A stretch of 64,000 nt of DNA from Escherichia coli. GTDB taxonomy: Bacteria; Pseudomonadota; Gammaproteobacteria; Enterobacterales; Enterobacteriaceae. Shown in pieces: positions 3,428 through 21,425 of this stretch. A program made the position numbers and the translations under genes. Location: assembly GCF_003790525.1 (NCBI RefSeq), contig NZ_CP033635.1; one strand, given 5' to 3'. Within the stretch, counting starts at the first letter, position 1. The number at the start of each line of letters is the position of its first letter. The notes under the pieces were generated by a model, which was not told where the DNA came from, did not search any database, and saw only the letters and a program-made list of their open reading frames with translations.

Positions 3428-3449
3428 ATTGTGTATAGCTTATGCTATA

Positions 3450-3471
3450 AAACATAGCCGTTGCTATGTTT
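3450..3471 (+). promoter_or_regulatory. putative MntR operator upstream of sitA
   Basis: Near-perfect palindrome AAACATAGC-cgtt-GCTATGTTT, as in MntR sites of mntH/sitA. Confidence 0.55.
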
Positions 3472-3503
3472 GTTCTAATTTTACTCACTATAGGTACTGA
3501 ATT

Positions 3504-4900: not shown

Positions 4901-5221
4901 TCACCCGGAGAAGGTAAATCCCTCAAGAGGCAGCAGCTCAGCCAGTCGGTCCTCAGGCCACTCCGGCAGGCGCGTCAGTACGTCCGTCAGCCAGGCATGT
5001 GGCTCCAGACCATTACGCTTTGCTGTTTCCAGAAGACTCATTATCTGTGCCGCGCGTTTGCCGGCCATCAGCGAGCCTGCGAATAACCATGCCTTTCGCC
5101 CCAGCGTGACCGGGCGGATGGCTCGTTCGCAGATATTGTTGTCCGGTGGCACAGAGCCATCATCCAGAAAACGGCACAGCTCATCAGGTCGTTTCAGGAT
5201 ATAGCTGATAGCCTTATGCAA
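4901..5221 (-). mobile_element. IS66-family transposase C-terminal remnant
   Basis: 106-aa ORF (...ICERAIRPVTLGRKAWLFAGS...LETAKRNGLEPHAWLTDVLTRLPEW...) matches the IS66-family transposase C-terminus; the 5' part of the gene is missing. Confidence 0.7.
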
Positions 5222-5694
5222 TGGACTGTCTGGCGGACCGCCTGCTCCTGCTCTTGACGGTTTTTTGCCTTGTATATCAGGTTATAGACGAGAAGATTGT
5301 CGTCTTCGTGGTTTCCGTCAGGAAAAGAGAATGCTCAAAAGTGTATAGTAAGGCGGTCAAACGCATTCGCTGAAATAAGATGTGTCACTTCAGCTTTGCG
5401 TTAACACGACTATTTTTCATCACTCAAGCGGTAGTCCCGGTGACTCACACGTATACGAGTCACCGCTTCAGATTTGAGTATCCGAATTTAAATCAGGGAC
5501 ACAATGGAAGAAGCGAACACTTTCGCATCCTCTTCCTGCAATTCGCAGACTGTCACTCTGCGTCCAGTTCCCTCTTTCCTCAGCAGGTACCAACGCCAGG
5601 CTCCCGACAAAGGTTGACCTGAAACGACCAAATACACAGGAAACAAAATACTGTCAGACAGAACGAGGCGTGCTATACATCACGCCTCAATGCT

Positions 5695-6684: not shown

Positions 6685-6918
6685 TGTTTATCTCTTCTGA
6701 ACCAGGTAACATTAACAGAACATGTTTCAGGATATCCGCGCAGTGCGGAACATTACGGCTCACCACTGTGACGGCGGATCATCGCCACCCAGTATCCGAC
6801 AGACCCCTTACTTTGTTCGTAAACATCCTTCCTGCCCCCCTGAATCTCCAGACAACCAATATCACTTAAATAAGTGATAGTCTTAATACTAGTTTTTAGA
6901 CTAGTCATTGGAGAACAG

Positions 6919-7284
6919 ATGATTGATGTCTTAGGGCCGGAGAAACGCAGACGGCGTACCACACAGGAAAAGATCGCAATTGTTCAGCAGAGTTTTGAAC
7001 CGGGAATGACGGTCTCCCTTGTAGCCCGGCAACACGGTGTGGCAGCCAGCCAGCTATTTCTCTGGCGCAAGCAATACCAGGAGGGAAGTCTTACTGCTGT
7101 GGCCGCAGGAGAACAGGTCGTTCCTGCCTCTGAACTTGCTGCTGCCATGAAGCAGATTAAAGAACTCCAGCGCCTGCTCGGCAAAAAAACGATGGAAAAT
7201 GAACTCCTCAAAGAAGCCGTTGAATATGGACGGGCAAAAAAGTGGATAGCGCACGCGCCCTTATTGCCCGGGGATGGGGAGTAA
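6919..7284 (+). CDS. insC: IS2 transposase OrfA (InsC)
   Basis: [56 protein letters not shown]... is the IS2 OrfA sequence. Confidence 0.9.
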
Positions 7285-8147
7285 GCTTAGTCAGCCGTTG
7301 TCTCCGGGTGTCGCGTGCGCAGTTGCACGTCATTCTCAGACGAACCGATGACTGGATGGATGGCCGCCGCAGTCGTCACACTGATGATACGGATGTGCTT
7401 CTCCGTATACACCATGTTATCGGAGAGCTGCCCACGTATGGTTATCGTCGGGTATGGGCGCTGCTTCGCAGACAGGCAGAACTTGATGGTATGCCTGCGA
7501 TCAATGCCAAACGTGTTTACCGGATCATGCGCCAGAATGCGCTGTTGCTTGAGCGAAAACCTGCTGTACCGCCATCGAAACGGGCACATACAGGCAGAGT
7601 GGCTGTGAAAGAAAGTAATCAGCGATGGTGCTCTGACGGGTTCGAGTTCCGCTGTGATAACGGAGAAAAACTGCGAGTCACGTTCGCGCTGGACTGCTGT
7701 GACCGTGAGGCACTGCACTGGGCGGTCACTACGGGCGGCTTCAACAGTGAAACAGTACAGGACGTCATGCCAGGAGCGGTGGAACGCCGCTTCGGCAACG
7801 ATCTTCCGGCGTCTCCAGTAGAGTGGCTGACGGATAATGGTTCATGCTACCGGGCTAATGAAACACGGCAGTTTGCCCGGATGTTGGGGCTTGAACCGAA
7901 GAGCACGGCGGTGCGGAGTCCGGAGAGTAACGGCATAGCAGAGAGCTTCGTGAAAACGATAAAGCGTGACTACATCAGTATCATGCCTAAACCAGACGGG
8001 TTAACGGCAGCAAAGAACCTTGCAGAGGCGTTCGAGCATTATAACGAATGGCATCCGCATAGTGCACTGGGTTATCGCTCGCCACGGGAATATCTGCGGC
8101 AGCAGGCCAGTAATGGGTTAAGTGATAACAGGTGTCTGGAAATATAG
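7242..8147 (+). CDS. insD: IS2 transposase OrfB (InsD)
   Basis: 301-aa ORF with integrase-core catalytic region, overlapping orfA in the -1 frame as in IS3-family elements. Confidence 0.9.
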
Positions 8148-8199
8148 GGGCAAATCCACCTGAATCTGAGGCAGCACCTGGCACGGCTGGGACGGAAGT

Positions 8200-8441
8200 C
8201 GCTGTCGTTTTCAAAATCGGTGGAGCTGCATGACAAAGTCATCAGGCATTATCTGAACATAAAACACTATCAATAAGTTGGAGTCATTACCGTGTTCCCG
8301 ACAGACGACTCGGTGAAAAAAGTGGTGTGGCTGGCAATCCAGTCTGCGTCCCAGAAATGGACGATGCCGTTGAAGGACTGGCGAATGGCAATGAGCCGCT
8401 TTATTATCGAGTTCGGTGACCGCCTGGACGGTCACTTCTGA
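8200..8441 (+). mobile_element. IS256-family transposase 3' remnant
   Basis: Translation FPTDDSVKKVVWLAIQSASQKWTMPLKDWRMAMSRFIIEFGDRLDGHF* matches the conserved C-terminal tail of IS256-family transposases; only this tail is present, immediately right of IS2. Confidence 0.5.
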
Positions 8442-8473
8442 GAAAAGGCATTTACACAGAATCCTAAACAGGC

Positions 8474-9211
8474 TCATGTACAGCGCTGTACCGGGCAATG
8501 GGTAATACCGGTCACAACCGGTAACCCCAGAGACAATGCAACTGTTTTTAACGCAATATACTGGCCGGATGTATCACCCCGGGCAGCCTGAAAACACCTT
8601 TCCACCCGGCATTGTCCGTCAGCACTTATCACCCGCCATGTCTGTTGCAATAAATCCACCCGTTGCGAACATTCTTCATCAACCGTGGCACTGACCCGTG
8701 GATGGCAAATGCTCGTCTGGCTGAGCAGCAACAGGCATCGCATTGTTGCTCCTCCATGTTGTTCCCGCAACCAGCGTAATACCACCGGTGGTGCTGGACT
8801 GGCCGTGTGATTACGTTCAGTAATACGCTCGTGCACCTGTCGGTAAAAGGAAGTACAGAATGCATGAATCTGTTGTCCGTTGATGTTTCCTTCTGCCGAA
8901 TGGAGTGTGAAGTGGACGGCCAGCAGACGCGGCCAGTGATCCACCGCCTGCTGAATAAAACGCCGGATTTCCACCGGCTCTGAAAGTACGGTTTCGGTTA
9001 TTTGCACGATTTGATCCCCTTGAATGTTGCTGAACCGGTGTCGGTACGCAGGAAAGCACGCCGAGACCGGTACGATGCCTGTTACAGCGAAGAACGAGGA
9101 ATGACAGACGGGGGCAGCAGGTCGCCAGCACCAGGGACAGGGCTGATTTCCACAATACCAACGCTGGTATTTTGCACATTGCCAGCGTACCGGCATTACA
9201 ACACGTTTCAT
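8474..9211 (-). CDS. YagK/YfjJ-like (inovirus Gp2-like) protein, third tandem copy; possibly degenerate
   Basis: Central region (RLLAVHFTLH...NGQQIHAFCTSFYRQV...) parallels the two upstream paralogs; an internal Met at 9211 would overlap the alpA-like stop (ATGA). The N-terminal region is Cys/Trp-rich and atypical, so a frameshifted pseudogene is possible. Confidence 0.35.
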   Translation of the reverse strand: MKRVVMPVRWQCAKYQRWYCGNQPCPWCWRPAAPVCHSSFFAVTGIVPVSACFPAYRHRFSNIQGDQIVQITETVLSEPVEIRRFIQQAVDHWPRLLAVHFTLHSAEGNINGQQIHAFCTSFYRQVHERITERNHTASPAPPVVLRWLREQHGGATMRCLLLLSQTSICHPRVSATVDEECSQRVDLLQQTWRVISADGQCRVERCFQAARGDTSGQYIALKTVALSLGLPVVTGITHCPVQRCT

Positions 9212-9444
9212 GCTGCTGCCCCTCGTGATGCCTCGATTCGTTGCTGCATCCACTGCTCCACTTCACTTTTGTACCAGCGGCTGCTGCGCCCCAGTTTGAT
9301 GGGTTTAGGGAAATGGCCTTCACTGATCAGCTTGTAAAACCATTTGTCGGTCATACCAGTGAAGCTGGTGATGTAGTTCATGTCGATCAGGGGATCGTCG
9401 GCACGCAGCAATACGCTGTCGTGACCTGTCATTGAGGTCAACAT
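9208..9444 (-). CDS. AlpA-family prophage regulatory protein
   Basis: Contains ...FTGMTDKWFYKLISEGHFPKPIKLGRSSRWYKSEVEQWMQQRIEASRG, the typical AlpA-like helix-turn-helix of integrative islands. The true start is probably the internal Met at 9381. Confidence 0.7.
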   Translation of the reverse strand: MLTSMTGHDSVLLRADDPLIDMNYITSFTGMTDKWFYKLISEGHFPKPIKLGRSSRWYKSEVEQWMQQRIEASRGAAA

Positions 9445-9512
9445 GGTCAGAATGTCCTCTGTGAGATTTATGAATGTTGGGCAAATGCGGGTGAATCTGC
9501 TGAGCTGAGCTT

Positions 9513-10115
9513 TCAGAGCTGGCCTGCTACGGGATACCAGGGATTACCGGCGAGGTAACGGGCTTCCGGATCGCGCACACCACGACGATCGCGGGCGAAA
9601 TCACTGAACGCCCATATCAGCTCTTTGAGTCTCTCTTCGCAGTCCGGTGAACAACTGTCCAGCACCACATCCCGGGTTATCTGTTTCTGGTACGGTGCCG
9701 CTTCACCCGGTGAGGCGAAGCCCAGCACGTTGCTCCAGGCATCCAGAATCAGCCGATCCAGTTCAGGGCCGTCGAAATACTCCTGCCTGACGCACAGCAC
9801 CACGTGGTATTCCGGCTTTTCAGGATGACGTGTCAGGAGCCAGCAGAGGTCACGTCCGGGGGTTGCATTCATCAGGTCACTGACGGTTTCAATAAAGGCC
9901 ATACCGAACCAGGTCCTGCGGCTGCTGAAGGTATTATCGGGTTCCCACGGCAGACGAAGCAGGATACGTCGTATCCGGGAGCCGGACTGCTCACGCAGCG
10001 CACGGTCAAGAACGCCAATAACTTTGTTCTGATACGAGGGCCAGAAGGGTGCCATGCTGTCGTCGAAATAAGAGAAAGTATTCACAGGATATGCTCCGTT
10101 ATGCGCAGCCCACAA
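9513..10115 (-). CDS. YagK/YfjJ-family (inovirus Gp2-like) protein
   Basis: 200-aa ORF paralogous to 10418..11149; the only in-frame start before an upstream stop is a TTG. Confidence 0.5.
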   Translation of the reverse strand: MWAAHNGAYPVNTFSYFDDSMAPFWPSYQNKVIGVLDRALREQSGSRIRRILLRLPWEPDNTFSSRRTWFGMAFIETVSDLMNATPGRDLCWLLTRHPEKPEYHVVLCVRQEYFDGPELDRLILDAWSNVLGFASPGEAAPYQKQITRDVVLDSCSPDCEERLKELIWAFSDFARDRRGVRDPEARYLAGNPWYPVAGQL

Positions 10116-10417
10116 CGCGTCCTGCCCGGGGATGGATGGGCTGACGGGTTACAGGCTGCGGATGAGGTTGATGGAACAGGTGAAGAACCGACGCTGAGCG
10201 GGAATATCAGGGAAGAACATTCAGGGTGAATGAACTCCGTTGACTTCGGTTCACATCATTAAGCAGGGCGGTAAGGTTTTACCGACAGATTGTTTCCGGG
10301 TGCGGAAGCAGATACCGCTGCTGACTTCATGACGGGTTATCAGAATACGGGATAAGGGCATTGGCTGACTCTCTTACCGTGGCATAAGTTCAGGTACCGG
10401 ATACCGTTTTACCGACC

Positions 10418-11149
10418 TCACCTGCCATCCAGCAAACGCCCCGGCCCACGGCTGCAACCATAATTACGCTGACCGGAACCATTATGCTGCTTCGTTTTAT
10501 TTTTCACGAGATAACTGGCTCTGTTCCTGGCTTTCTGCATCGCTGCCACATCACCACGCTTGATCCAGAGAACAGCGGCTTCACCCGGCTTTTTTTCTGA
10601 AGCCTTCCTGGTATCAGAACATCCACCCGACAAAGGCGTGTCATCGGAAGAAGGGCGAGCATCAGACGATGCTGGTTTACGAAAAGGCTTCCACCTGGAA
10701 AAATGGACCAGGCCATCGCCTTGCCAGGGCTCAAGATGCAGAGCGCTGCACCATGCCTCCTGGATCATCGCCGCCAGCGAAGACGGTTCGCTGAAATCCC
10801 CGAGCGAGCACCAGGTATCTTTGTTGAGCAGCAATATCACGTGATAATGTTTCCTGTTTTCTTCCTCTCCGAACTCCCGGCACCAGAAATAACGCAGGCT
10901 GGTTGCATGCACACGCTGACTGGCACGTCGCTTATGCTGCTGGTAAGCCTGGATTTTGGCTTTCAGGGATTCGAAAAAACGAGAAATCACCGCTGAATCC
11001 GGATCGGGATCCATGATGGTGACAGGCATATACTCAGGGAAACGTAAATCCACCCGGATTAACGAGACGGCACGGTGCTGCGACAGGGCACTGTCGAGAA
11101 GGCTGTCAAAACGGGATAACCAGTAAGCATTGTGTATTGGTTGATTCAT
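10418..11149 (-). CDS. YagK/YfjJ-family (inovirus Gp2-like) protein
   Basis: 243-aa ORF with N-terminal ...AVSLIRVDLRFPEYM... motif recalled from CP4-57 YfjJ / CP4-6 YagK. Confidence 0.55.
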   Translation of the reverse strand: MNQPIHNAYWLSRFDSLLDSALSQHRAVSLIRVDLRFPEYMPVTIMDPDPDSAVISRFFESLKAKIQAYQQHKRRASQRVHATSLRYFWCREFGEEENRKHYHVILLLNKDTWCSLGDFSEPSSLAAMIQEAWCSALHLEPWQGDGLVHFSRWKPFRKPASSDARPSSDDTPLSGGCSDTRKASEKKPGEAAVLWIKRGDVAAMQKARNRASYLVKNKTKQHNGSGQRNYGCSRGPGRLLDGR

Positions 11150-11209
11150 GATGAGAGATCTCCGTTGATTTGGATTGACTTCACATCATTAATCACCGCG
11201 GTAAAACTT

Positions 11210-12720
11210 TACGGCATCATGTCATTAAGCAATGCTACAACTCTCTGATTAAGAGTGATTGAAACGGAACAAACCATCCCGGAACGAAAAGATAATCCTG
11301 CACACAGCAGCAAAACACGCAACAACAGCATGAATGGATTTAAAAACGACATGGACGACGAGAAAAGCCTGAAGGGAAAAGGATCCACAGAACATTCGAA
11401 CAAAACACCAGAAACGCAACCAGAACGCTTCCTGGCAATGCAAATCAACAACAACACCAAAACCTACAGCTTAATCACACAACTCAATCACGAATGCGAA
11501 TGACACGTTTAAAACCTGTTTACAGATAACGTCGTAACAAGATCATCCCCATCAGAATCGATTTTCTTATCTTGAGTATGTTACTTTTCAACATACCTAA
11601 ACGATTAACCACCGATAACGTAAATCTCATCTGAATCAAAACACCAAAACCAATCATCACGTTTTCGACAGAAGAAAAACACCACATCATGACAAAAAGA
11701 ATGACCTTACACGGAAAAGAAAAACGTCAGGAATCGTTAATGCATACCTCAATCTGATTGTTATCAAAACATCCAGAAAGTCGTTTAACAGAATCGTCGT
11801 AAGCACATCGAAAAGAACGTCAGATCACCTCAGGAAAGTTCGGGTTGATTTAGCGTAAAGATACTTTTCTCAGCTTAACGTCGAAACACAAACCAAAAAC
11901 CACAAACAACCAAAGCTCAGGAAAGGTTAAACGTCACATCAGTAAAATCGAATAGCAGATTGATTGCTTAAACAGGAAGGATTGTTTTACAGCAGCATTA
12001 AACTGATTTAGTTAACGTAAAATCAGAACTGACAGGTTTACTAACTTGGATGTGTATCAGTTCAAAAATGTGTACAGCAATGCGTAATGAAACACATTTA
12101 AAGGAGATTAATGGGAAAAGTGTGTAAATGCGTAAACATGCACTAATGAATCACTGAAGGAATACATACAAAACGACTTAATGAAAACATAAAAGGACCT
12201 AATGGAAAAGGTGTATATAATACCATATCCGACATTCTCAACATCTTAAGACATCCATGCAGACTGAATGTTGGTTTCAGTTTTTCACGGTAAGCATGAA
12301 TCTTTTCTGTTCAAAAGCAGAGCAGATTTACTCTGGAATTATTTTTCTTACTCCGTATTCTGTACAGCAAAAACTTGTGCTAACTTTACAGCAAACCATC
12401 ATAATCAGCGTCTGTAGTCCCATCGCTTTACCCCATGAAAGTGAATCCATATGATGCGAGAGAGATAAGTCATCGTATCCGGTAAACACTGCTAACCATA
12501 ACATAAGATCATTCAGTCAGTTTTATCTCTGAACTGACGATTATGGCATGCTCATTTATATGGCTCACAGAGGAGTGTTATTATCTGTAAGCTTTAATCA
12601 TCAAATCACATGACCATACCAAACTGGCGCTATATCAGCTCATTTGACACCCCTTCCCTTTAGATTTCTTTATGTGTTTTTTGTCGATAATTAAAATGTA
12701 ATATGAATTTAATATTTTTA
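11210..12720 (+). other. ~1.5 kb non-coding, strand-asymmetric A-rich tract
   Basis: No ORF of 60 aa or more between 11503 and 12257 in any frame; hand counts on sampled 60-nt blocks give roughly 38-45% A versus 12-23% T on the + strand. Confidence 0.6.
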
Positions 12721-12722
12721 CA

Positions 12723-13946
12723 TCATAAACACCATTTAAAACCATTATCCTGAACATCATACAACAATATATTTTTACTAAAGCATGAATTGTATATTTC
12801 TATTAATTCAGGAAAATTATCAGGATTCACCTTTAAATTCACCTGAATGTTACGCCTAATTTCACCCAGCAGTTTTTCATGCGTGAATTTTATTATTTCT
12901 TTATCATAATCTATAAATTCACACATGTTTTTTATGAATTCAAACCCTTTTCCTGTATACAGTTTGATGAATGCCACAAGAGCAAACATTTCAAGATGCA
13001 GCCATAATGCCACGTGAGTTTTTCGCAAAGTATAAAAAATTGAATTCACCTCTTTTTTACTTATTGCTCTTTTGTACTGTGAGTGTGCCAGATTCAGTAG
13101 TGGCAATTCTCTCTCGATAAATGAAAGTGAAAAAGGCGGGTAAATTGATGTCGGAAATATTTTAGGTCTTATGATATTTTCTATTTCCACCATAAATCTA
13201 TCCATAGAAAGAAAATCATTTTCTTTTTTTATTCTGGTATAGAGACCGCCTTTATTTCTTACTGCGACTTTTTTTCGTGCTACCCCCCCCAACACTTCCT
13301 CTAATTGTTTATTTATCTTCGTATCATTAAATACAACCATTCTTCTTATCATCCTGGGAAGGATGATAATATCAGAGCTTGAATCACTTGAACGGTAATT
13401 ATTATTGATCCATGCAACTTCAAGTTGAAGTATCGGAACATTAAATTCTCTGGGGTTAATAACTCTCTGATATTGTTTTTTGTATGCGTTTTTATTAAGA
13501 TATTCTCTGCTGTAGAGAAACTTATAGCAATATAATCTGACAATATCCTTTATGTAAGATTTAAATGAGTCACCTGTAACAGATATATTTTTTCTGCTCA
13601 GTAACTCCTGTGTATTGAGCCATTCCCGTGACCGGAGTACTCCCTTATGAAGACTTTTTCTTACTTGCATTGAACTGCGCAATTGATGTAATATTTTTGC
13701 GTCCTCAACAATTCTCTTTCCCGTTTGATTTCTTGCAGCATCTATTACTCTGTCAAATATCTCCCGGTCCAGACTTTTGTCATATTTACTGATTATACGA
13801 CAAATATTCCTGACCCGACGGTTCTCTTTATTTCGTTTCCATAACTGATAATGATCATCACATAACCTCAGGGCATTTGCCTCATCAAATTCTGAAACAG
13901 GATTGCTGCATTTTTTATTCCGACAGATACCTTTGTTTTTAGCCAT
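12723..13946 (-). CDS. hypothetical protein, 407 aa, very low GC, N-terminal Cys/His cluster
   Basis: Long uninterrupted ORF in a region of roughly 30% GC (hand count on sampled blocks); K/N/I-rich; N-terminus GICRNKKCSNP...LCDDHY suggests a zinc-ribbon-like motif. No family recognised. Confidence 0.6.
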   Translation of the reverse strand: MAKNKGICRNKKCSNPVSEFDEANALRLCDDHYQLWKRNKENRRVRNICRIISKYDKSLDREIFDRVIDAARNQTGKRIVEDAKILHQLRSSMQVRKSLHKGVLRSREWLNTQELLSRKNISVTGDSFKSYIKDIVRLYCYKFLYSREYLNKNAYKKQYQRVINPREFNVPILQLEVAWINNNYRSSDSSSDIIILPRMIRRMVVFNDTKINKQLEEVLGGVARKKVAVRNKGGLYTRIKKENDFLSMDRFMVEIENIIRPKIFPTSIYPPFSLSFIERELPLLNLAHSQYKRAISKKEVNSIFYTLRKTHVALWLHLEMFALVAFIKLYTGKGFEFIKNMCEFIDYDKEIIKFTHEKLLGEIRRNIQVNLKVNPDNFPELIEIYNSCFSKNILLYDVQDNGFKWCL

Positions 13947-14000
13947 ACTCTTCTTCCCGTCAATGGAAAATTTTTCACGTCCATATTACCTGACTGAGAG

Positions 14001-14021
14001 ACCGGATTAATGTGATCCGGT
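14001..14021 (+). promoter_or_regulatory. inverted repeat in the divergent intergenic region
   Basis: ACCGGAT-taatgtg-ATCCGGT perfect 7-bp arms, between the divergent 407-aa ORF and the GTPase gene. Confidence 0.3.
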
Positions 14022-14046
14022 TCAGTGAAATCAACAGGATACCGGT

Positions 14047-14931
14047 ATGTCATTCAGCCATTCTTCCCTTTCCGCACACGTAAAATCACATCTGACCTTT
14101 CTTCCTGAAGAAATACGCCAGAAAATCCTTGAATATCTTCACAGCGTCATTCAGTACGAACCCGTGATTGGCATTATGGGTAAATCCGGTGCCGGAAAAA
14201 GCAGCCTGTGCAATGCCATTTTTCAGTCCCGTGTCTGCGCCACGCATCCACTGAACGGCTGCACCCGTCAGGCTCATCGTCTTACCTTTCAGCCTGGTGA
14301 ACGCAGAATGACGCTCGTCGATCTGCCCGGCACTGGCGAAACACCACAGCATGATCAGGAATACCGGGCACTTTACCGTCAGTTACTGCCCGAACTGGAT
14401 CTGATTATCTGGATCCTGCGTGCTGATGAACGTGCGTATGCTGCCGACATCGCCATGCATCAGTTTTTACTGAATGAAGGTGCCGATCCCTCGCGTTTTC
14501 TGTTTGTTCTCAGCCATGCTGATCGCATCCACCCGGCTGAAGAATGGAACAGCCAGAGCAACACGCCATCCCGTCAGCAGGAACTCTCACTGGCAACAGT
14601 AACAGCCCGGGTGGCAACCCTGTTCCCTTCATCATTTCCGGTACTCCCCATAGCTGCCCCTGCAGGCTGGAATCTTCCGGCATTTGTGTCACTGATGATC
14701 CACGCCCTGCCACCACAGGCAACCAGCACGGTTTATTCGCATATCCGGAATGAAAAGCGCACTGCGCAGGATCAGCAACACGCACAGCAGGCTTTTGGTG
14801 ACGCCATCGGCCAGAGCTTTGACGCGGCCATTGCCCGGTTCAGCTTTCCGGCCTGGATGCTGCAGCTTCTGCGTAAAGCCCGTGATCGCATTATCCGCCT
14901 GCTGGTCACACTGTGGGATCGCCTGTTCTGA
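14047..14931 (+). CDS. YeeP/YfjP/YkfA-family GTPase (50S ribosome-binding GTPase domain)
   Basis: 294-aa ORF with P-loop GIMGKSGAGKSS and overall resemblance to K-12 prophage GTPases YfjP/YeeP. Confidence 0.85.
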   Translation: MSFSHSSLSAHVKSHLTFLPEEIRQKILEYLHSVIQYEPVIGIMGKSGAGKSSLCNAIFQSRVCATHPLNGCTRQAHRLTFQPGERRMTLVDLPGTGETPQHDQEYRALYRQLLPELDLIIWILRADERAYAADIAMHQFLLNEGADPSRFLFVLSHADRIHPAEEWNSQSNTPSRQQELSLATVTARVATLFPSSFPVLPIAAPAGWNLPAFVSLMIHALPPQATSTVYSHIRNEKRTAQDQQHAQQAFGDAIGQSFDAAIARFSFPAWMLQLLRKARDRIIRLLVTLWDRLF

Positions 14932-15116
14932 ATTTCCCCGCTTTTTGACCGGCACAGACGATGACCAGGGAACGCATTTCCGGCGGCTTTACCACAATGC
15001 TGAAGGGCTTTTGGTAAACCTCATTCATTTCATCCATCAGGCAGCGTCTTCTCCGGGAGATGCGGCTTTTTCATTGATTACGTCAGTCAGTCTTAACCAC
15101 TGATAAGGAGCAAAGT

Positions 15117-15935
15117 ATGCGATTAGCCAGTCGTTTTGGTTATGCGAACCAGATACGCCGTGACCGTCCGCTGACACATGAAGAGCTGATGCACCATGTG
15201 CCCGGGATTTTCGGGGAGGATAAGCACACCTCCCGGAGCCGGAACTATACATACATCCCCACCATCACCGTGCTGGAAAGCCTGCAACGGGAAGGCTTTC
15301 AGCCGTTCTTTGCCTGCCAGACCCGCGTGCGTGACCCGGGACGCCGGGGATACACAAAGCACATGCTGCGTCTGCGCCGTGACGGGGAGATAAACGGACA
15401 GCATGTCCCTGAAATCATCCTGCTCAACTCCCATGACGGCACCTCCAGCTACCAGATGCTGCCGGGTTACTTCCGGTTCGTGTGTCAGAACGGATGTGTC
15501 TGTGGTCAGTCTCTCGGAGAGGTGCGTGTCCCGCACCGGGGAGACGTGGTGGACAGGGTCATTGAAGGGGCTTACGAGGTGGTGGGCGTGTTTGACCGGA
15601 TAGAGGAAAAGCGTGATGCCATGCAGTCACTGATTTTACCACCACCGGCTCGTCAGGCGCTGGCACAGGCCGCCCTGACTTACCGTTATGGTGACGAACA
15701 TCAGCCCGTCACCACCGCCGACATTCTGACACCACGACGCCGGGAGGATTACGGTCAGGACCTGTGGAGTGCTTATCAGACCATCCAGGAGAATATGCTG
15801 AAAGGCGGGATTTCCGGTCGCAGTGCAAAAGGAAAACGTATCCATACCCGGGCCATTCACAGCATTGATACCGATATAAAACTCAACCGCGCATTGTGGG
15901 TGATGGCAGAAACGCTGCTGGAGAGCATGCGCTGA
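15117..15935 (+). CDS. DUF932 protein (YfjQ-like)
   Basis: 272-aa ORF closely resembling CP4-57 YfjQ (MRLASRFG...YTYIPTI...FFACQ.RVRD...). Confidence 0.85.
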   Translation: MRLASRFGYANQIRRDRPLTHEELMHHVPGIFGEDKHTSRSRNYTYIPTITVLESLQREGFQPFFACQTRVRDPGRRGYTKHMLRLRRDGEINGQHVPEIILLNSHDGTSSYQMLPGYFRFVCQNGCVCGQSLGEVRVPHRGDVVDRVIEGAYEVVGVFDRIEEKRDAMQSLILPPPARQALAQAALTYRYGDEHQPVTTADILTPRRREDYGQDLWSAYQTIQENMLKGGISGRSAKGKRIHTRAIHSIDTDIKLNRALWVMAETLLESMR

Positions 15936-16016
15936 TGCCGTTTCCCTGAGTGAGGGAATCATTCAGCTTTCGTTCCTGAAAAACACACATTTATTTGTTA
16001 TTTAAGGAGTTATCTC

Positions 16017-16457
16017 ATGAAAACCGTTTCTCAGAATACCCCCACAATTTATTCAGCTACAACACCAGAGAATAATCCGCCTCAGTTGGTTGCCAGCCTC
16101 GTCCCTGATGAACAGCGCATCAGCTTCTGGCCGCAGCATTTTGGCCTCATTCCACAGTGGGTGACCCTGGAGCCCCGTGTCTTCGGCTGGATGGACCGTC
16201 TGTGCGAAGACTACTGCGGTGGTATCTGGAATCTGTACACCCTGAACAACGGCGGCGCATTTATGGCCCCCGAACCGGATGATGATGATGACGAAACATG
16301 GGTACTGTTCAATGCCATGAACGGTAACCGCGCTGAAATGAGCCCGGAAGCCGCCGGCATTGCTGCCTGTCTGATGACGTACAGTCATCATGCCTGTCGT
16401 ACGGAGTGTTATGCCATGACGGTTCATTATTACCGTCTGCGGGATTACGCCCTGTAG
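16017..16457 (+). CDS. antirestriction protein (YfjX/KlcA/ArdB-like)
   Basis: 146-aa ORF with the conserved FWPQHFGLIPQW...GWMDRLCEDYCGGIW motif block. Confidence 0.8.
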   Translation: MKTVSQNTPTIYSATTPENNPPQLVASLVPDEQRISFWPQHFGLIPQWVTLEPRVFGWMDRLCEDYCGGIWNLYTLNNGGAFMAPEPDDDDDETWVLFNAMNGNRAEMSPEAAGIAACLMTYSHHACRTECYAMTVHYYRLRDYAL

Positions 16458-16511
16458 CATCCGGAATGCAGCGCCATTATGCGCATCATTGACTGAAAGG
16501 GGGCCGGAACA

Positions 16512-16988
16512 ATGCAACAGATTTCCTTTCTGCCCGGAGAAATGACAACCAGAGAGCGCAGCCTCATTCAGCGGGCCCTGAAAGCCCTGGACCGCCATCT
16601 TCATGAACCCGGCGTGGCCTTCACCTCCACCCGTGCGGCACGGGAATGGCTGATTCTGAACATGGCGGGACTGGAGCGGGAAGAGTTCCGGGTGCTGTAC
16701 CTGAACAACCAGAATCAGCTGATTGCCGGTGAAACCCTCTTCACCGGCACCATCAACCGCACGGAAGTCCATCCCCGGGAGGTGGTTAAACGCGCCCTGT
16801 ACCACAATGCCGCTGCCGTGGTGCTGGCACACAATCATCCGTCCGGTGAAGTCACACCCGGTAAGGCAGACCGGCTTATCACTGAACGTCTGGTACAGGC
16901 ACTGGCCCTGGTGGATATCCGGGTGCCGGACCATCTGATAATCGGTGGCAGCCGGGTGTTCTCCTTTGCCGAACACGGTCTGCTTTAA
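16512..16988 (+). CDS. RadC-like JAB-domain protein (YeeS/YfjY/YkfG-like)
   Basis: 158-aa ORF with JAMM motif HNHPSG...; typical island position after the antirestriction gene. Confidence 0.85.
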   Translation: MQQISFLPGEMTTRERSLIQRALKALDRHLHEPGVAFTSTRAAREWLILNMAGLEREEFRVLYLNNQNQLIAGETLFTGTINRTEVHPREVVKRALYHNAAAVVLAHNHPSGEVTPGKADRLITERLVQALALVDIRVPDHLIIGGSRVFSFAEHGLL

Positions 16989-17077
16989 TCCGTCACCGTC
17001 ACAACCACCTTCATATTGTCACTTCAGTTTCTCTTTCTCAGCTGTTTCTCACTTTCACATTCAGGAGGACTGTTCTC

Positions 17078-17299
17078 ATGAAAATCGTCACCCGTGGTGA
17101 AGCCATGCGCGTTCACCGTCAGTATCCGTCATCCCGTCTTTTTCCGTTCTGCACCGGTAAGTACCGCTGGCACGGCGGCACTGAGGCGTATACCGGTCGT
17201 GAAGTGCAGGATATCCCCGGCGTACTGGCCGTGTTTGCCGAACGCCGCAAGGACAGTTTTGGCCCGTATGTCCGGCTGATGAGCGTCACCCTGAACTGA
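17078..17299 (+). CDS. DUF987 protein (YeeT/YkfH-like)
   Basis: 73-aa ORF MKIVTRGEAMRVHRQ...; size and position match DUF987 genes of CP4-type islands. Confidence 0.7.
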   Translation: MKIVTRGEAMRVHRQYPSSRLFPFCTGKYRWHGGTEAYTGREVQDIPGVLAVFAERRKDSFGPYVRLMSVTLN

Positions 17300-17303
17300 G
17301 TCA

Positions 17304-17960
17304 GTGGAGATGCTGATGAGCAGCATTATCACCACCACCGTGTATACGCTGAATGAACTTTCCGCCACAGCACGGGAAAAAGCCCGCGGCTGGTACCGTC
17401 AGCATCATGCTGACAGCCGCTGGTATGAAAACGTGTATGAGGACTTCAGGGCGGTCTGTGAGATTGTCGGGATTGTCCTCCGCCAGCGTGTTATCCGGCT
17501 CAGCAGCGGCAGGTTTATGGAAGAGCCGTGCATCTGGTTCAGCGGATTCTGCAGCCAGGGGGACGGAGCCTGTTTTGAAGGGCGCTGGCACTGGCAGCCG
17601 GCAACAGCCAGGCGAGTCCGGGAATATGCCCCGCAGGACCGTGAGCTTCATCGTATCACGGATGCCCTGCAGGCGGTGCAGAAGCATAACTTCCGGCAGT
17701 TACAGGCTGAAATCCGTCACCGGGGACGCTACTGCCATCCGTACAGCATGGATATCACCGTCACCCGGGACAGCCCGACCGGACAGGCAATGACAGCCGG
17801 CGCGGAAACCGTTGTCTGTGACGCCCTGCGGGACCTGGCCTTCTGGTTATACAGTCAACTGGAAAACGAGTACGACTGGCTGACCTCAGATGACGCCGTG
17901 GATGAGGCGCTTCTCATCAACGGATACACCTTCACCGAAGCCGGTCTGCGCGCCGGCTGA
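17304..17960 (+). CDS. hypothetical protein, 218 aa, unrecognised family
   Basis: ORF starts 5 nt after the DUF987 stop and lies between DUF987 and the CbeA-like antitoxin; Cys/Trp/His-rich (CIWFSGFCSQGDGACFEGRWHW). Confidence 0.5.
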   Translation: MEMLMSSIITTTVYTLNELSATAREKARGWYRQHHADSRWYENVYEDFRAVCEIVGIVLRQRVIRLSSGRFMEEPCIWFSGFCSQGDGACFEGRWHWQPATARRVREYAPQDRELHRITDALQAVQKHNFRQLQAEIRHRGRYCHPYSMDITVTRDSPTGQAMTAGAETVVCDALRDLAFWLYSQLENEYDWLTSDDAVDEALLINGYTFTEAGLRAG

Positions 17961-18010
17961 CCCGTCATTGTTAAAACCATTCTTAACCGATTATCAGTGA
18001 GGACTTTATC

Positions 18011-18388
18011 ATGTCAGACACACTCACCGGGACAACGCATCCCGACGACAACAGCGACCGCCCCTGGTGGGGGCTGCCCTGCACCGTGACGCCCTGTTTC
18101 GGTGCCCGTCTGGTGCAGGAGGGTAACCGCCTGCATTACCTTGCAGACCGCGCCGGCATCAGAGGCCGGTTCAGCGACGCAGATGCGTACCACCCGGACC
18201 AGGCCTTTCCGCTGCTGATGAAACAGCTGGAACTCATGCTCACCAGTGGTGAACTCAGTCCCCGCCATCAGCATACCGTCACACTGTATGCGAAAGGGCT
18301 GACCTGCGAAGCCGACACCCTCGGCAGTTGTGGTTACGTGTATATCGCCATTTATCCGACACCGGCAACACCCGGAACCACCGCATAA
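18011..18388 (+). CDS. cbeA: CbeA/YeeU-family type IV antitoxin
   Basis: [52 protein letters not shown]... is near-identical to YeeU/CbeA as recalled. Confidence 0.85.
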
Positions 18389-18434
18389 CCCCGGACAGCA
18401 CTTCTTTATCACCACCTGTTACAGAGTACTTAAG

Positions 18435-18809
18435 ATGAAAACATTCCCCGACACACATGTACGGGCAACATCGCGCTGCCCGTCTCCGGTTGAAATCTGG
18501 CAGACACTGCTCACCCGGTTGCTGGACCAGCACTACGGCCTCACGCTGAATGACACACCGTTCGCCGATGAACGTGTGATTGAACAGCATATTGAGGCAG
18601 GTATTTCACTGTGTGATGCGGTGAACTTTCTCGTGGAAAAATACGCACTGGTGCGTACCGACCAGCCGGGATTCAGTGCCTGCACCCGCTCTCAGTTAAT
18701 CAACAGCATTGATATCCTCCGGGCCCGCCGGGCAACCGGCCTGATGACCCGCAGCCACTACCGAATGGTGAGCAACATCACCCTGGGTAAACACTGTGAG
18801 GTGAAATGA
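18435..18809 (+). CDS. cbtA: CbtA/YeeV-family type IV toxin
   Basis: ...[65 protein letters not shown]... matches CbtA/YeeV. Start set at the ATG at 18435 rather than the longer ORF-track start. Confidence 0.85.
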
Positions 18810-19297
18810 TGAAACTGTCCCTGACGCTGGAAGCAGACAGCGTTAACGTCCGGGCACTGAACATGGGGCGCATTGTCGCTGACGTCGATGGTGTTAATCT
18901 CGCTGAACTGATTAACGTGGTCTGCGATAACGGCTGTTCCCTTCGTGTTGTTGATGAATCTGACCGGACCTCAGCAGACTGCATGCCACCATTTACTGCC
19001 CTTACCGGCATACGCTGCAGTACCGCACATATCACGGAACAGGACAATGCCTGGCTGTACTCGCTGTCGCATCAGACGAATGACAACGGCGAATCAGAAT
19101 GGATTCATTTTACAGGCAGCGGATATCTGTTACGTACTGATGCGTGGTCGTACCCGGCTCTGCGGCTTAAACGCCTGGGGCTGTCAAAAACCTTCCGCCG
19201 TCTGGTTGTCACACTTATCCGGCGTTATGGCGTCAGTCTCATTCATCTGGATGCCGGCGCTGAATGTCTGCCGGGTTTACCCACTTTCGACTGGTAA
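18806..19297 (+). CDS. YeeW-like protein (DUF5983)
   Basis: 163-aa ORF overlapping the cbtA stop, in the position occupied by yeeW in CP4-44. Confidence 0.65.
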
Positions 19298-19316
19298 CCG
19301 GGACAAAAGACACCGT

Positions 19317-19514
19317 ATGAAATCATTAACCACAGAAACGGCACCGGATATTCTGATTGCGTGGCTGCAGGACAATATCGACTGCGGCTCCGGCATTATC
19401 TTCGACAACGATGAGGATAAAACGGATTCGGCAGCACTGCTGCCCTGTATCGAACAGGCCAGAGCGGATATCCGCACCCTGCGCCACCTGCAGCTTCAGC
19501 ACCAGAACCGGTGA
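19317..19514 (+). CDS. DUF957 small protein
   Basis: 65-aa ORF MKSLTTETAPDILIAWLQDNIDCGSGIIFDNDEDKTD..., recalled as the DUF957 family of island ends. Confidence 0.55.
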   Translation: MKSLTTETAPDILIAWLQDNIDCGSGIIFDNDEDKTDSAALLPCIEQARADIRTLRHLQLQHQNR

Positions 19515-19609
19515 GTCTCACTCATCATCTCACTCACCACGATTCATTCCCCTGACGCCAGTCCGAATACGGCTGGCGTTTTCATTTATAAACCACAAGG
19601 AAAAATGTA

Positions 19610-20458
19610 ATGTCTGATATCACAATCCCTTATCCGGAAGCGGTCAACGGACATACGGACGTTATCTGCTCCACAGATATCCGGCACGTTGTGACGGTAC
19701 GGAATGAAGCACTGCAACAAACCGAAAGGGTTATCCGGCAACTGGCAGAAATCTCAGCAATGACAGAAAGCATAGGCGGTAAAACGGCGCGGGACTGGGC
19801 CGTGAAACAGGATTTTCGCTGTGGCTGCTGGCTGATGGAAAAACCGGAAACCGCAATGAAAGCCATCACCCGGAACCTTGACCGTGAAATCTGGCGTGAC
19901 CTGATGCAACGCTCCGGGATGCTGAGTCTGATGGATGCACAGGCGCGTGATGAATGGTACCGTTCACAGGAGGACGATAATTTCCCGGAAATCAGCGAAG
20001 CGAATATCCTGAGCACGTCTGAACAACTGCACCGTAACAGGGATGAAATGGCTGAACGGGGCGTCATCAACCTCTTCAGGGGACTGAGCCGGACGCAAAA
20101 CAGCGGGTCACCCTGTAAATTCGGCAGCAAGATTATCCTCAACAACCTGGTGAAATGGGACTGGTGGGGATTTGGTCTGAACCATGGCCCGCAGGCCGGG
20201 CGGCTTGCCGACCTGGAAAGAATGTTGTATCTGTTCAGTGGTAAACCCATACCCGATTACAGGGACAATATCCTCATTCGTCTGGATGAGCACATCCGGT
20301 CCGTTCAGGGTGAAGCGTGTTATGAAGATGAGATGTTCAGCATCAGATACTTCAGGAAAGGCTCTGCGCATATCACGTTTAAACACCCGGAACTGGTGGA
20401 GAAGCTGAATGCTGTTCTGGCGAAACATTATTCGGTAAAGTTCCATTCTTCTGTATAA
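19610..20458 (+). CDS. hypothetical protein, 282 aa (possibly DUF4942-like)
   Basis: Long ORF with a good SD (AAGGAAAA); family assignment from memory is uncertain. Last gene before the core genome. Confidence 0.5.
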   Translation: MSDITIPYPEAVNGHTDVICSTDIRHVVTVRNEALQQTERVIRQLAEISAMTESIGGKTARDWAVKQDFRCGCWLMEKPETAMKAITRNLDREIWRDLMQRSGMLSLMDAQARDEWYRSQEDDNFPEISEANILSTSEQLHRNRDEMAERGVINLFRGLSRTQNSGSPCKFGSKIILNNLVKWDWWGFGLNHGPQAGRLADLERMLYLFSGKPIPDYRDNILIRLDEHIRSVQGEACYEDEMFSIRYFRKGSAHITFKHPELVEKLNAVLAKHYSVKFHSSV

Positions 20459-20661
20459 ACTTACAGATCACGGGTATTGTGTCTCGTCCTGAACAGGGCC
20501 GACAGGTATACTGCATTCGCTGAGCCATTACAGATAATGCCTCAACTGAGTTCAATCTACCTCCATGTACAACAACAATACGATGGGGGCTACATTGGGG
20601 GCTATACTTTCAAGTAAAACTGATATAACCAAGATTAAACAATAAGATAGAGAATTTTCAC

Positions 20662-20716
20662 CATTCCCCTCTGGGGAGAGGATTAGGGTGAGGGGCGCAA
20701 ACCCGCTCCGGGGCCA
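20662..20716 (+). repeat. GC-rich palindromic repeat-like element upstream of glnP
   Basis: CCATTCCCCTCTGGGGAGAGGATTAGGGTGAGGGGCGCAAACCCGCTCCGGGGCC contains nested inverted repeats resembling E. coli intergenic palindromic units. Confidence 0.3.
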
Positions 20717-20765
20717 TTAATTACCCTGAATTTGATTATTTACACCACGGTAACAGGAACAACAT

Positions 20766-21425
20766 ATGCAGTTTGACTGGAGTGCCATCTGGCCAGCCAT
20801 TCCGCTTCTGATTGAAGGTGCCAAAATGACCCTGTGGATCTCGGTCCTCGGTCTGGCTGGCGGCCTGGTGATCGGATTGCTGGCAGGTTTTGCACGCACC
20901 TTCGGTGGTTGGATAGCCAACCACGTCGCGCTGGTCTTTATTGAAGTGATCCGCGGCACACCTATCGTCGTCCAGGTGATGTTTATCTATTTCGCCCTGC
21001 CGATGGCGTTTAACGACTTACGCATCGACCCGTTTACTGCGGCGGTGGTCACCATCATGATCAACTCTGGCGCGTACATTGCGGAAATCACGCGTGGTGC
21101 GGTGCTGTCTATTCACAAAGGTTTTCGTGAAGCAGGACTGGCGCTCGGTCTTTCACGTTGGGAAACCATTCGCTACGTCATTTTACCGCTGGCACTGCGT
21201 CGTATGCTGCCGCCGCTGGGTAACCAGTGGATCATCAGCATTAAAGACACCTCGCTGTTTATTGTTATCGGTGTGGCGGAACTGACCCGTCAGGGGCAAG
21301 AAATTATTGCCGGTAACTTCCGCGCCCTTGAGATCTGGAGCGCCGTGGCGGTGTTCTATCTGATTATTACCCTGGTGCTGAGCTTTATTCTGCGTCGTCT
21401 GGAAAGAAGGATGAAAATCCTGTGA
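20766..21425 (+). CDS. glnP: glutamine ABC transporter permease GlnP
   Basis: 219-aa ORF matching K-12 GlnP ([15 protein letters not shown]...). Confidence 0.95.

What the first reader, a model, noticed from the sequence alone, without database searches (positions are those of the whole stretch)
14047..16988. GTPase - DUF932 - antirestriction - RadC module lacking the antigen 43 gene
The module matches CP4-44/CP4-57 architecture, but the GTPase gene is followed directly by DUF932 with no flu (Ag43) autotransporter or isrC-like region between them. The variable cargo is instead on the other side of the GTPase gene.
Basis: partly seen in the sequence, partly recalled or inferred. Interest (0 to 1): 0.25.

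Follow-up and report, generated by a model that had tools for sequence, protein, structure and literature searches.

The report
Ordinary CP4-type island module, compact form
This is the well-known conserved gene block at the far end of E. coli CP4-type genomic islands; having no antigen 43 gene is normal for its lineage and matches two of the three K-12 islands, so the finding is ordinary.

Summary
The gene order is real: GTPase (14047-14931), DUF932 (15117-15935), ArdB-type antirestriction (16017-16457) and RadC-like JAB (16512-16988). It continues with DUF987, DUF8835, CbeA/CbtA, DUF5983, DUF957 and DUF4942, up to an island end at 20664. There is no Ag43 or isrC anywhere in the 64 kb.

The absence is not remarkable. 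In K-12, CP4-57 (yfjP-yfjQ) and CP4-6 (ykfA-yafZ) also place the GTPase 92 bp from DUF932. K-12 CP4-44, the only island with flu, has no DUF932 or antirestriction gene because of a 3.36 kb deletion.

The window's GTPase belongs to a separate lineage: about 36% identical to YfjP/YkfA/YeeP-type proteins and 87% to a FORC_082-type. In 5426 complete E. coli genomes this lineage is never found next to agn43.

The 185 bp spacer holds a 57 bp DUF905 remnant, so the adjacency comes from a small deletion. The likely ancestor had hyp225 and DUF905 in that slot, not Ag43.

Side result: the island ends at a 14-17 bp att core inside a BoxC repeat in the glnH-glnP spacer, which is a published PAI site.

Verdict: already known, low interest.

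The parts
12723..13946 (-). Orphan 407-aa gene, 33% GC, transcribed divergently from the GTPase. This is the variable cargo on the 'other side'.
   Evidence: ORF. No Pfam, PADLOC or PHROG hit. Only 'hypothetical' homologues in E. coli, Citrobacter and Klebsiella. Replaced by an unrelated 376-aa gene in L008/L009 while the flanks stay homologous. The AlphaFold model is poor (pLDDT 61).
14047..14931 (+). GTPase of 294 aa, a distinct lineage of the YeeP/YfjP/YkfA family.
   Evidence: Pfam MMR_HSR1 and Dynamin_N. G1 GKSGAGKS and G3 DLPG are intact. 87% aa identity to the FORC_082 GTPase but only 34-37% to YfjP, YkfA and the YeeP-type proteins.
14957..15013 (+). Remnant of a DUF905 gene (internal 19 codons), with no start codon.
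   Evidence: Nucleotide match to L008 7294-7345 and L009 9001-9052, inside their DUF905 CDS. tblastn gives 13/19 identities.
15015..15116 (+). Conserved DUF905-DUF932 spacer, with a terminator-like hairpin at 15044-15063 and the DUF932 ribosome-binding site.
   Evidence: Homology to thousands of genomes starts at 15015, which corresponds to the DUF905 stop codon. Hairpin.
15117..15935 (+). DUF932 protein (YfjQ/YafZ family).
   Evidence: Pfam E=1.1e-51. 97% identity to Z1322 and 75% to YfjQ/YafZ. Homologues lie in the F-type plasmid leading region.
16017..16457 (+). ArdB/KlcA-type antirestriction gene. A premature TAG removes the last 13 codons.
   Evidence: Pfam. PDB 2WJ9 at E=3.4e-92 and KlcA 2KMG. 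The window reads TAG where CM2 reads Gln147, giving 146 versus 159 aa.
16512..16988 (+). RadC-like JAB protein (YeeS/LfgB family).
   Evidence: Pfam E=7.6e-44 and NCBIfam radC. 94% identity to YeeS. The JAMM Ser is Gly in this lineage: HNHPSGEVTPGKAD.
17078..17299 (+). DUF987 (YeeT family).
   Evidence: Pfam E=6.2e-37. 90% identity to YeeT.
17316..17960 (+). Extra gene (DUF8835 in RefSeq), absent from the K-12, Z1322, FORC_082, O157 and PRO_A modules.
   Evidence: Window 17341-17975 has no counterpart in L003, L006, L007, L008 or L009. Annotated as DUF8835 in 23CRST013. PHROG 5162.
18011..18809 (+). CbeA antitoxin (18011-18388) and CbtA toxin (18435-18809), a type IV toxin-antitoxin pair.
   Evidence: Pfam E=6e-54 and 1.7e-61. 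90% and 85% identity to K-12 CbeA and CbtA.
18806..20458 (+). DUF5983 (18806-19297), DUF957 (19317-19514) and DUF4942 (19610-20458).
   Evidence: Pfam. RefSeq annotation of the near-identical loci. PHROG methyltransferase-like hit for DUF4942.
20459..20664 (+). Non-coding island terminus.
   Evidence: Found in only 16 of 5426 genomes. K-12 backbone homology starts at 20665.
20665..20681 (+). attR core TCCCCTCTGGGGAG(AGG), inside the BoxC/PIT repeat of the glnH-glnP spacer.
   Evidence: Comparison of empty site and occupied site, and the direct repeat in 23CRST013. The same core occurs at the CM2 and AR_0085 junctions.

Best explanation
The region is the conserved att-distal arm of an E. coli CP4-type genomic island (P4-like integrase), in its most compact form. 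The order is GTPase, DUF932, ArdB antirestriction, RadC-like JAB, DUF987, one extra DUF8835 gene, the CbeA/CbtA type IV toxin-antitoxin pair, DUF5983, DUF957 and DUF4942, ending at attR in the glnH-glnP spacer. The GTPase sits next to DUF932 because a deletion emptied a known variable slot between them and left a 57 bp DUF905 remnant. The lost segment was most likely a hyp225-DUF905 pair as in strain FORC_082, not an Ag43 gene. Inferred function: the block is not one machine. It is a set of entry and maintenance genes of plasmid leading-region type. ArdB blunts type I restriction of incoming DNA. DUF932 and DUF905 are shared with the F leading region. The RadC-like JAB is a protease, as shown for LfgB of CP4-57. 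CbtA/CbeA penalises loss of the island. The role of the GTPase is unknown. Gene identities, synteny, the deletion and the att site are shown here. The functional roles are taken from the literature on homologues or inferred.
For: The K-12 islands show the same adjacency. The slot between GTPase and DUF932 holds different cargo in different islands: agn43, an 838-aa protein, IrmA and DUF905 in Z1322; dynamin, RdcB and patatin in O157; hyp225 and DUF905 in FORC_082; HTH, hyp225 and DUF905 in PRO_A-1534. The DUF905 remnant and breakpoints at 14932/14957 and 15008/15015 are. Junction frequencies in 5426 complete genomes are 69 for the window type, 241 within about 1 kb, 578 for the yfjP-yfjQ type and at least 1886 for GTPase-agn43. 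A chimeric query of the window GTPase plus agn43 gave 0 genomes. DUF905 and DUF932 lie in an F-type leading region between ssb/psiB and the SLT gene. The yfjXY-ypjJ-yfjZF genes form an operon and LfgB (YfjY) is a protease (PMC10846083). Leading regions concentrate anti-defence genes including klcA (PMC11541004). attL, attR and the integrase are seen in 23CRST013.
Against: No experiment links this particular block to transfer or establishment. No oriT, relaxase, ssb or psiB was identified in 8000-21000 (ORF list). The integrase end lies outside the window. ArdB carries a premature stop and the RadC JAMM Ser is Gly, so parts may be inactive. The ancestor of the deletion is inferred from present-day relatives only. 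DUF932-RadC is closer to the Z1322/O157 type (95-98% aa) than to the FORC_082 type (88% for DUF932), so recombination between lineages is also involved.
Confidence: 0.85

Rival explanations
1. One reading: a distinct island architecture in which the Ag43/isrC cargo was lost and the variable cargo was relocated upstream of the GTPase.
For: No flu or isrC is present. The gene left of the GTPase is exchangeable. GTPase-agn43 is the commonest junction in E. coli, in at least 1886 of 5426 genomes.
Against: CP4-57 and CP4-6 have the same direct adjacency. The window's GTPase lineage is never next to agn43. The remnant in the spacer is DUF905, not agn43 or isrC. Cargo upstream of the GTPase also varies in islands that do carry agn43 and in K-12 (rnlAB, perR).
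Confidence: 0.07
2. The block is an inert, decaying remnant of a once-mobile island with no present function.
For: ArdB has a nonsense codon. There is a DUF905 remnant. IS2, an IS66 fragment and a truncated sitB lie in the same island. The hyp407, DUF5983 and DUF4942 genes are frameshifted in sister strains.
Against: Ten of eleven module ORFs are intact and full length here. The block is conserved at 85-97% nucleotide identity across thousands of genomes. The homologous CP4-57 operon has measurable phenotypes (PMC10846083).
Confidence: 0.2
3. The divergent pair of the 294-aa GTPase and the AT-rich orphan gene is an exchangeable two-gene unit, for example an anti-phage defence system, and is separate from the DUF932-DUF4942 block.
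For: The pair shares a 100 bp divergent spacer. The partner gene is swapped between islands while the GTPase and the 77 bp upstream of it are kept. The cargo gene has low GC (0.33). There is a weak PADLOC LeoBC hit in the GTPase C-terminus, E=1.2e-6. K-12 has the defence toxin-antitoxin pair rnlAB at the equivalent position.
Against: The orphan has no defence-family hit. It is frameshifted in three of the closest strains. The structure model was too poor to use. No co-variation analysis was done.
Confidence: 0.08

Closest known systems
CP4-57 of E. coli K-12 (yfjP-yfjQ ... lfgA/yfjX-lfgB/yfjY-ypjJ-yfjZ-ypjF)
   Same: Same gene families in the same order and orientation. The GTPase is directly followed by DUF932 with no flu. 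The antirestriction-RadC-DUF987-antitoxin-toxin operon was studied as lfgABCDE (PMC10846083).
   Different: CP4-57 has 6.4 kb of cargo (yfjR to ypjI) between DUF932 and antirestriction, whereas the window has 81 bp. CP4-57 ends after the toxin, whereas the window adds DUF5983, DUF957 and DUF4942 plus an extra DUF8835 gene. Proteins are 36% (GTPase) to 76% identical. CP4-57 sits at ssrA and the window island at glnH-glnP.
CP4-6 of K-12 (ykfA-yafZ ... yafX-ykfG-ykfH-yafW-ykfI)
   Same: GTPase and DUF932 are adjacent with a 92 bp gap, and the downstream families are the same.
   Different: yafY, ykfB and ykfF lie between DUF932 and antirestriction. CP4-6 sits at thrW. Identities are 34-80%.
CP4-44 of K-12 and its undeleted form in strain Z1322HEC0010
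   Same: The closest sequence relatives from DUF932 through CbtA: 95-98% aa to Z1322, and 85-94% to YeeS, YeeT, CbeA and CbtA.
   Different: The GTPase is YeeP-type (37% identical) and is followed by isrC and flu/agn43. Z1322 further has an 838-aa protein, IrmA and an intact DUF905. K-12 lost DUF932 and antirestriction in a 3.36 kb deletion.
Island of strain FORC_082 / PRO_A-1534 (same GTPase lineage)
   Same: A GTPase of the same 294 aa length, 87% identical, with a divergent upstream orphan gene and the same downstream block.
   Different: These islands keep hyp225 and an intact DUF905 (plus an HTH/WYL regulator in PRO_A) in the slot that is deleted in the window. The upstream orphan is a different protein.
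Leading region of F-type conjugative plasmids
   Same: Carries DUF905 and DUF932 genes, and ArdB/KlcA-type antirestriction genes are typical there (PMC11541004).
   Different: The plasmid region has ssb, a ParB-like gene, psiB/psiA and hok/sok, and adjoins the transfer genes. None of these is in window 8000-21000. DUF932 is only about 69% identical at the nucleotide level.
papGII-type pathogenicity islands integrated in the gln and ula operons (Biggel et al. 2020, PMC7686366)
   Same: Same non-tRNA integration sites (glnP-glnH, ulaE-ulaD) with site-specific integrases. The window island ends at the gln site.
   Different: No pap operon is in the window. The island carries a sitA remnant and other cargo.

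Membership tests
CP4-type island conserved arm (YeeP/YfjP/YkfA GTPase ... CbtA/CbeA) | GTPase homologous over its full length to YfjP/YkfA/YeeP | tested here: met
   blastp gives 34-37% identity over about 280 aa, E=1e-58 to 1e-66. It is a divergent lineage.
CP4-type island conserved arm (YeeP/YfjP/YkfA GTPase ... CbtA/CbeA) | DUF932, PF03230 antirestriction, RadC-JAB, DUF987, CbeA and CbtA, co-oriented and in this order | tested here: met
   Pfam hits, coordinates, and 57-94% identity to the K-12 proteins.
CP4-type island conserved arm (YeeP/YfjP/YkfA GTPase ... CbtA/CbeA) | Bounded by a P4-like tyrosine integrase and direct-repeat att sites | tested here: inconclusive
   attR is identified at 20665. 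The integrase and attL are not in the window. They are seen only in sister strains 23CRST013 and CM2. No tRNA is in the window.
Ag43 (flu) / isrC cargo of CP4-44 | Autotransporter gene and the isrC/Dam-OxyR regulatory region downstream of the GTPase | tested here: not met
   blastn and tblastn find nothing in 64 kb. Rfam finds nothing. The chimeric junction query matches 0 of 5426 genomes.
ArdB/KlcA antirestriction proteins | Sequence membership and full-length fold | tested here: inconclusive
   Matches PDB 2WJ9 at E=3.4e-92 and KlcA 2KMG at 2.7e-16, but the last 13 residues are lost to a TAG codon. Activity was not tested.
JAMM/JAB metalloproteases (RadC-like) | H-x-H-x7-S-x2-D metal-binding motif | tested here: inconclusive
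   HNHPSGEVTPGKAD: both His and the Asp are present, but the Ser is Gly in the window, CM2 and LH50-c, whereas it is Ser in the K-12, Z1322 and O157 proteins.
Type IV toxin-antitoxin CbtA/CbeA | Adjacent antitoxin-then-toxin genes of PF06154 and PF06755 | tested here: met
   E=6e-54 and 1.7e-61. 90% and 85% identity to K-12 CbeA and CbtA.
Conjugative-plasmid leading region | Position next to oriT together with ssb, psiB and similar genes | tested here: not met
   Only DUF932, the DUF905 remnant and ArdB are shared. No ssb/psi-like ORFs were noted in 8000-21000. oriT was not searched for. The resemblance is in gene content, not membership.

The most novel reading that the evidence does not exclude
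The island family carrying this module uses its P4-like integrase to insert at a short palindrome, TCCCC-N3-GGGGAG. Multi-copy BoxC/PIT triplex repeats supply this palindrome at glnH-glnP and lptG-yjgR, and ulaE codons 13-18 supply it at the ula site. That would make it a repeat-targeting, multi-site island that splits operons. The gln and ula sites are published. I did not find the core sequence, the BoxC link or the lptG-yjgR site in the papers read, and one BoxC study states that no integrases were ever seen next to these repeats (PMC4666352).
Probability: 0.35. Interest if true: 0.35.

Novelty: already known. Interest (0 to 1): 0.1.

Why it matters
It matters little. The finding correctly recognises a conserved island block, but the feature it flags is the normal state of two K-12 islands and of this GTPase lineage. 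It is already annotated in dozens of RefSeq genomes. There are two useful by-products. First, there is a clear picture of a variable cargo slot between the GTPase and DUF932 that can be full (Ag43, dynamin/patatin), small (hyp225-DUF905) or deleted. Second, the island's attachment core is pinned inside a BoxC repeat at the known gln PAI site.

Tried and rejected
1. Identifying the 407-aa upstream cargo gene. Pfam, PADLOC and PHROGs gave nothing. The large homologue search gave only 'hypothetical' proteins. The AlphaFold model from 10 sequences was poor (pLDDT 61, pTM 0.37), so no fold search was run.
2. A distant-mode DNA search to count all GTPase-DUF932 adjacencies. It cannot bridge the roughly 36%-identical GTPase lineages, so K-12-type junctions were counted separately. 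All counts are lower bounds.
3. A sequence search of DUF932 against the PDB. Only chance-level hits appeared.
4. Chromosomal inversion as the explanation for the missing glnH. Rejected once 23CRST013 showed glnH-attL-integrase about 40 kb upstream of the same glnP junction.
5. BoxC as the exclusive target. Rejected because the ula site lies inside the ulaE coding sequence and shares only the palindromic core.
6. Promoter scan. No convincing sigma-70 sites near the GTPase or DUF932 starts, and fewer matches than in shuffles.
7. Literature search for the DUF932+antirestriction+RadC module as a named unit. One incidental paper only.
Full report
**Observation.** The window is E. coli DNA; megablast finds it in essentially every complete genome. 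The flagged coordinates run exactly from the start of a 294-aa GTPase gene (14047-14931) to the stop of a RadC-like gene (16512-16988). A DUF932 gene (15117-15935) and an antirestriction gene (16017-16457) lie between them, all on the plus strand.

Pfam supports each assignment: MMR_HSR1/Dynamin_N at 1.4e-14, DUF932 at 1.1e-51, PF03230 at 1.3e-28 and RadC at 7.6e-44. The antirestriction protein matches the solved ArdB of strain CFT073 (2WJ9, E=3.4e-92) and KlcA.

The block continues with these genes:
- DUF987 (17078-17299)
- a gene RefSeq calls DUF8835 (17316-17960)
- CbeA (18011-18388)
- CbtA (18435-18809)
- DUF5983 (18806-19297)
- DUF957 (19317-19514)
- DUF4942 (19610-20458)

Neither K-12 isrC+flu DNA nor the Ag43 protein finds any match in the 64 kb. 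Rfam finds no sRNA there.

The results are:
- CP4-57: yfjP (GTPase), a 92 bp gap, yfjQ (DUF932), then 6.4 kb of cargo, then lfgA/yfjX, lfgB/yfjY, ypjJ, yfjZ and ypjF.
- CP4-6: ykfA, a 92 bp gap, yafZ, then yafY, ykfB and ykfF, then yafX, ykfG, ykfH, yafW and ykfI.
- CP4-44: only here do isrC and flu follow the GTPase (the yeeP pseudogene). In K-12 this island has no DUF932 or antirestriction gene.

Alignment with the undeleted island at the same chromosomal site in strain Z1322HEC0010 shows a 3.36 kb K-12 deletion. It removes the 3' part of an 838-aa gene, IrmA, DUF905, DUF932, the antirestriction gene and the first bases of RadC.

A GTPase directly followed by DUF932 without flu is the state of two of the three K-12 islands.

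**Frequencies in 5426 complete E. coli genomes.** All of these are lower bounds (places covering at least 80% of a junction query).
- Exact window-type junction: 69 genomes.
- GTPase 3' end and DUF932 5' end of this sequence type within about 1 kb: 241.
- K-12 yfjP-yfjQ-type junction: 578.
- YeeP-type GTPase to agn43 junction: 1886, with many more at 72-77% coverage.

Ag43 after the GTPase is thus the commonest arrangement in the species, but the Ag43-less arrangement is common and long annotated.

**Anatomy of the spacer.** Homology to the thousands of DUF932 loci starts at window 15015. In those loci this position is the stop codon of a DUF905 gene.
- Window 14957-15008 matches an internal segment of DUF905 in FORC_082 and PRO_A-1534. 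It translates to DDDQGTHFRRLYHNAEGLL, with 13 of 19 residues identical to DUF905 residues 32-50.
- The first 93 nt of DUF905 and an 86 nt piece near its 3' end are missing.
- A terminator-like hairpin follows at 15044-15063.

The adjacency is therefore secondary. A deletion emptied the slot and left a DUF905 stub.

**Lineage.** The window's GTPase is 87% identical to the FORC_082 GTPase, which has the same 294 aa length. It is only 34-37% identical to YfjP, YkfA and the YeeP-type proteins. In contrast, DUF932, ArdB and RadC are 95-98% identical to the CP4-44-type island of Z1322. The block is therefore a mosaic joined at the DUF905 remnant.

In relatives with this GTPase lineage the slot holds hyp225-DUF905 (FORC_082) or HTH/WYL-hyp225-DUF905 (PRO_A-1534; also the WYL-containing hits). 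A chimeric query made of the last 500 nt of the window's GTPase joined to the Z1322 isrC region and the first 500 nt of agn43 found no genome with both halves together (0 of 5426). There is no evidence that this lineage ever carried Ag43.

**The slot and the 'other side'.** Across the family the GTPase-DUF932 slot holds various cargo:
- agn43, an 838-aa protein, IrmA and DUF905
- a dynamin-family protein, RdcB, a patatin-like phospholipase and two hypotheticals in an O157 island
- the small sets described above
- nothing, in K-12 CP4-57/CP4-6 and in the window

Left of the GTPase, across a 100 bp divergent spacer, lies a 407-aa gene of 33% GC (12723-13946, minus strand). In FORC_082 and PRO_A-1534 an unrelated 376-aa gene replaces it, and homology resumes 77 bp upstream of the GTPase start.

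Its function could not be assigned. There is no Pfam, PADLOC or PHROG hit. Only hypothetical homologues were found, in E. coli, Citrobacter and Klebsiella. The structure model was poor. The gene is frameshifted in CM2, Br_112_kylling and 23CRST013.

**State of the genes.** The GTPase keeps G1 (GKSGAGKS) and G3 (DLPG). ArdB has a CAG-to-TAG change at codon 147 that removes 13 C-terminal residues relative to CM2. RadC has Gly in place of the JAMM Ser, a change shared with CM2 and LH50-c. The DUF8835 gene is an insertion relative to all K-12, Z1322, FORC_082, O157 and PRO_A modules.

**Island context.** K-12 backbone homology begins at 20665, which is 38 nt after the position of the glnH stop. 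glnH, dps and rhtA are not in the window.

In strain 23CRST013 the same module abuts glnP. About 40 kb upstream lies a 397-aa P4-like integrase next to glnH. The junctions read glnH...TCCCCTCTGGGGAGG|island and island...CACCAT|TCCCCTCTGGGGAGAGG...glnP. The K-12 empty site reads ...CCCCTATGGGGAGAGG....

The core lies in a BoxC/PIT repeat. The repeat is named in PMC4666352 and has about 11 detectable copies per genome. The identical integrase in CM2 bounds a 92 kb island between lptG and yjgR at another BoxC copy. An integrase with 84.6% nucleotide identity sits in ulaE at CTCCCCGCCGGGGAG.

Integration of PAIs into the gln and ula operons is already published (PMC7686366).

The window's left edge lies inside the island. 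IS2 at about 6832-8162, an Rpn gene, an IS66 fragment and sitA with a truncated sitB lie upstream. Relative to CM2, about 66 kb of island DNA is missing near 8475.

**How it most likely works.** What is shown is a syntenic block of co-oriented, closely spaced genes, with gaps of -4 to 95 bp from DUF932 onward.

From the literature:
- The CP4-57 counterpart yfjXY-ypjJ-yfjZF is one operon, and YfjY/LfgB is a protease (PMC10846083).
- ArdB/KlcA proteins counter type I restriction (established knowledge; structures 2WJ9 and 2KMG).
- CbtA/CbeA is a type IV toxin-antitoxin pair acting on cytoskeletal proteins (Pfam family descriptions).
- Leading regions of conjugative elements concentrate such anti-defence and addiction genes (PMC11541004).

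DUF905 and DUF932 both occur in an F-type leading region between ssb/psiB and the SLT gene. My inference is that the arm provides early-entry protection and post-integration maintenance for the island. The GTPase and its exchangeable divergent partner form a separate unit of unknown role.

**Verdict.** It is wrong in treating the absence as a departure from the CP4-57 architecture. The arrangement is already present in K-12 and annotated in many genomes. Novelty: already known. Interest is low.

Noticed in passing
window 20665-20700 (and L014 20659-20875, L015 4893-5142, L016 3911-4142): The island ends at a 14-17 bp core, TCCCCTCTGGGGAG(AGG), inside a BoxC/PIT repeat of the glnH-glnP spacer. 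The same integrase family uses a BoxC copy at lptG-yjgR and a look-alike palindrome inside ulaE. The insertion separates glnH and its promoter from glnPQ. The gln and ula sites are published (PMC7686366); I did not find the core or the BoxC link described.
   Followed up: partly
window 16455-16457: A premature TAG (Gln147 in CM2) truncates the ArdB-type antirestriction protein by 13 residues (146 versus 159 aa).
   Followed up: yes
window 16512-16988 (residue ~119): The RadC-like JAB protein has Gly instead of the conserved JAMM-motif Ser (HNHPSGEVTPGKAD). The change is shared with CM2 and LH50-c but not with the K-12, Z1322 or O157 homologues.
   Followed up: partly
window 17304-17975: An extra 214/218-aa gene (DUF8835 in RefSeq, PHROG 5162) is inserted between DUF987 and CbeA. 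It is absent from all three K-12 islands and from the Z1322, FORC_082, O157 and PRO_A modules.
   Followed up: partly
window 11150-12720: About 1.5 kb with no sizeable ORF, A-rich on the plus strand (AT skew 0.29 in 11001-12000). Partly conserved in other islands (homology to L009 up to 12348). No Rfam hit.
   Followed up: no
window 3504-8162: An intact sitA is followed by a sitB truncated after about 50 codons, then an IS66 transposase fragment, an Rpn (YhgA-like) gene (5695-6684, minus strand) and a complete IS2 (about 6832-8162). The window order 1-8475 then 8476 onward is not contiguous in CM2 (about 66 kb apart) or Br_112_kylling (1.6 Mb apart). This points to recombination or deletion within the island near 8475.
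   Followed up: partly
window 8474-11149: Island backbone genes on the minus strand: an AlpA-family regulator (9208-9444), a YagK/YfjJ 'inovirus Gp2' protein (10418-11149) and a 200-aa hypothetical (9513-10115). A 33 nt direct repeat lies upstream of the last two (10250-10282 and 11180-11212, 82% identical).
   Followed up: no
L003 12780-14312 vs L006 8645-13521: K-12 yeeR is the truncated 5' part of an 838-aa gene. A 3.36 kb deletion in CP4-44 removed IrmA, DUF905, DUF932 and the antirestriction gene, and fused the remainder to yeeS.
   Followed up: yes
L007 6279-10644: In an O157:H7 island at ileX, the GTPase-DUF932 slot carries a dynamin-family protein, an RdcB-family protein and a patatin-like phospholipase in place of Ag43. 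The window GTPase has a weak PADLOC LeoBC hit.
   Followed up: no
window 50812-50956 (-): Molybdenum cofactor riboswitch (Rfam RF01055, 103 bits). An ordinary backbone feature.
   Followed up: no
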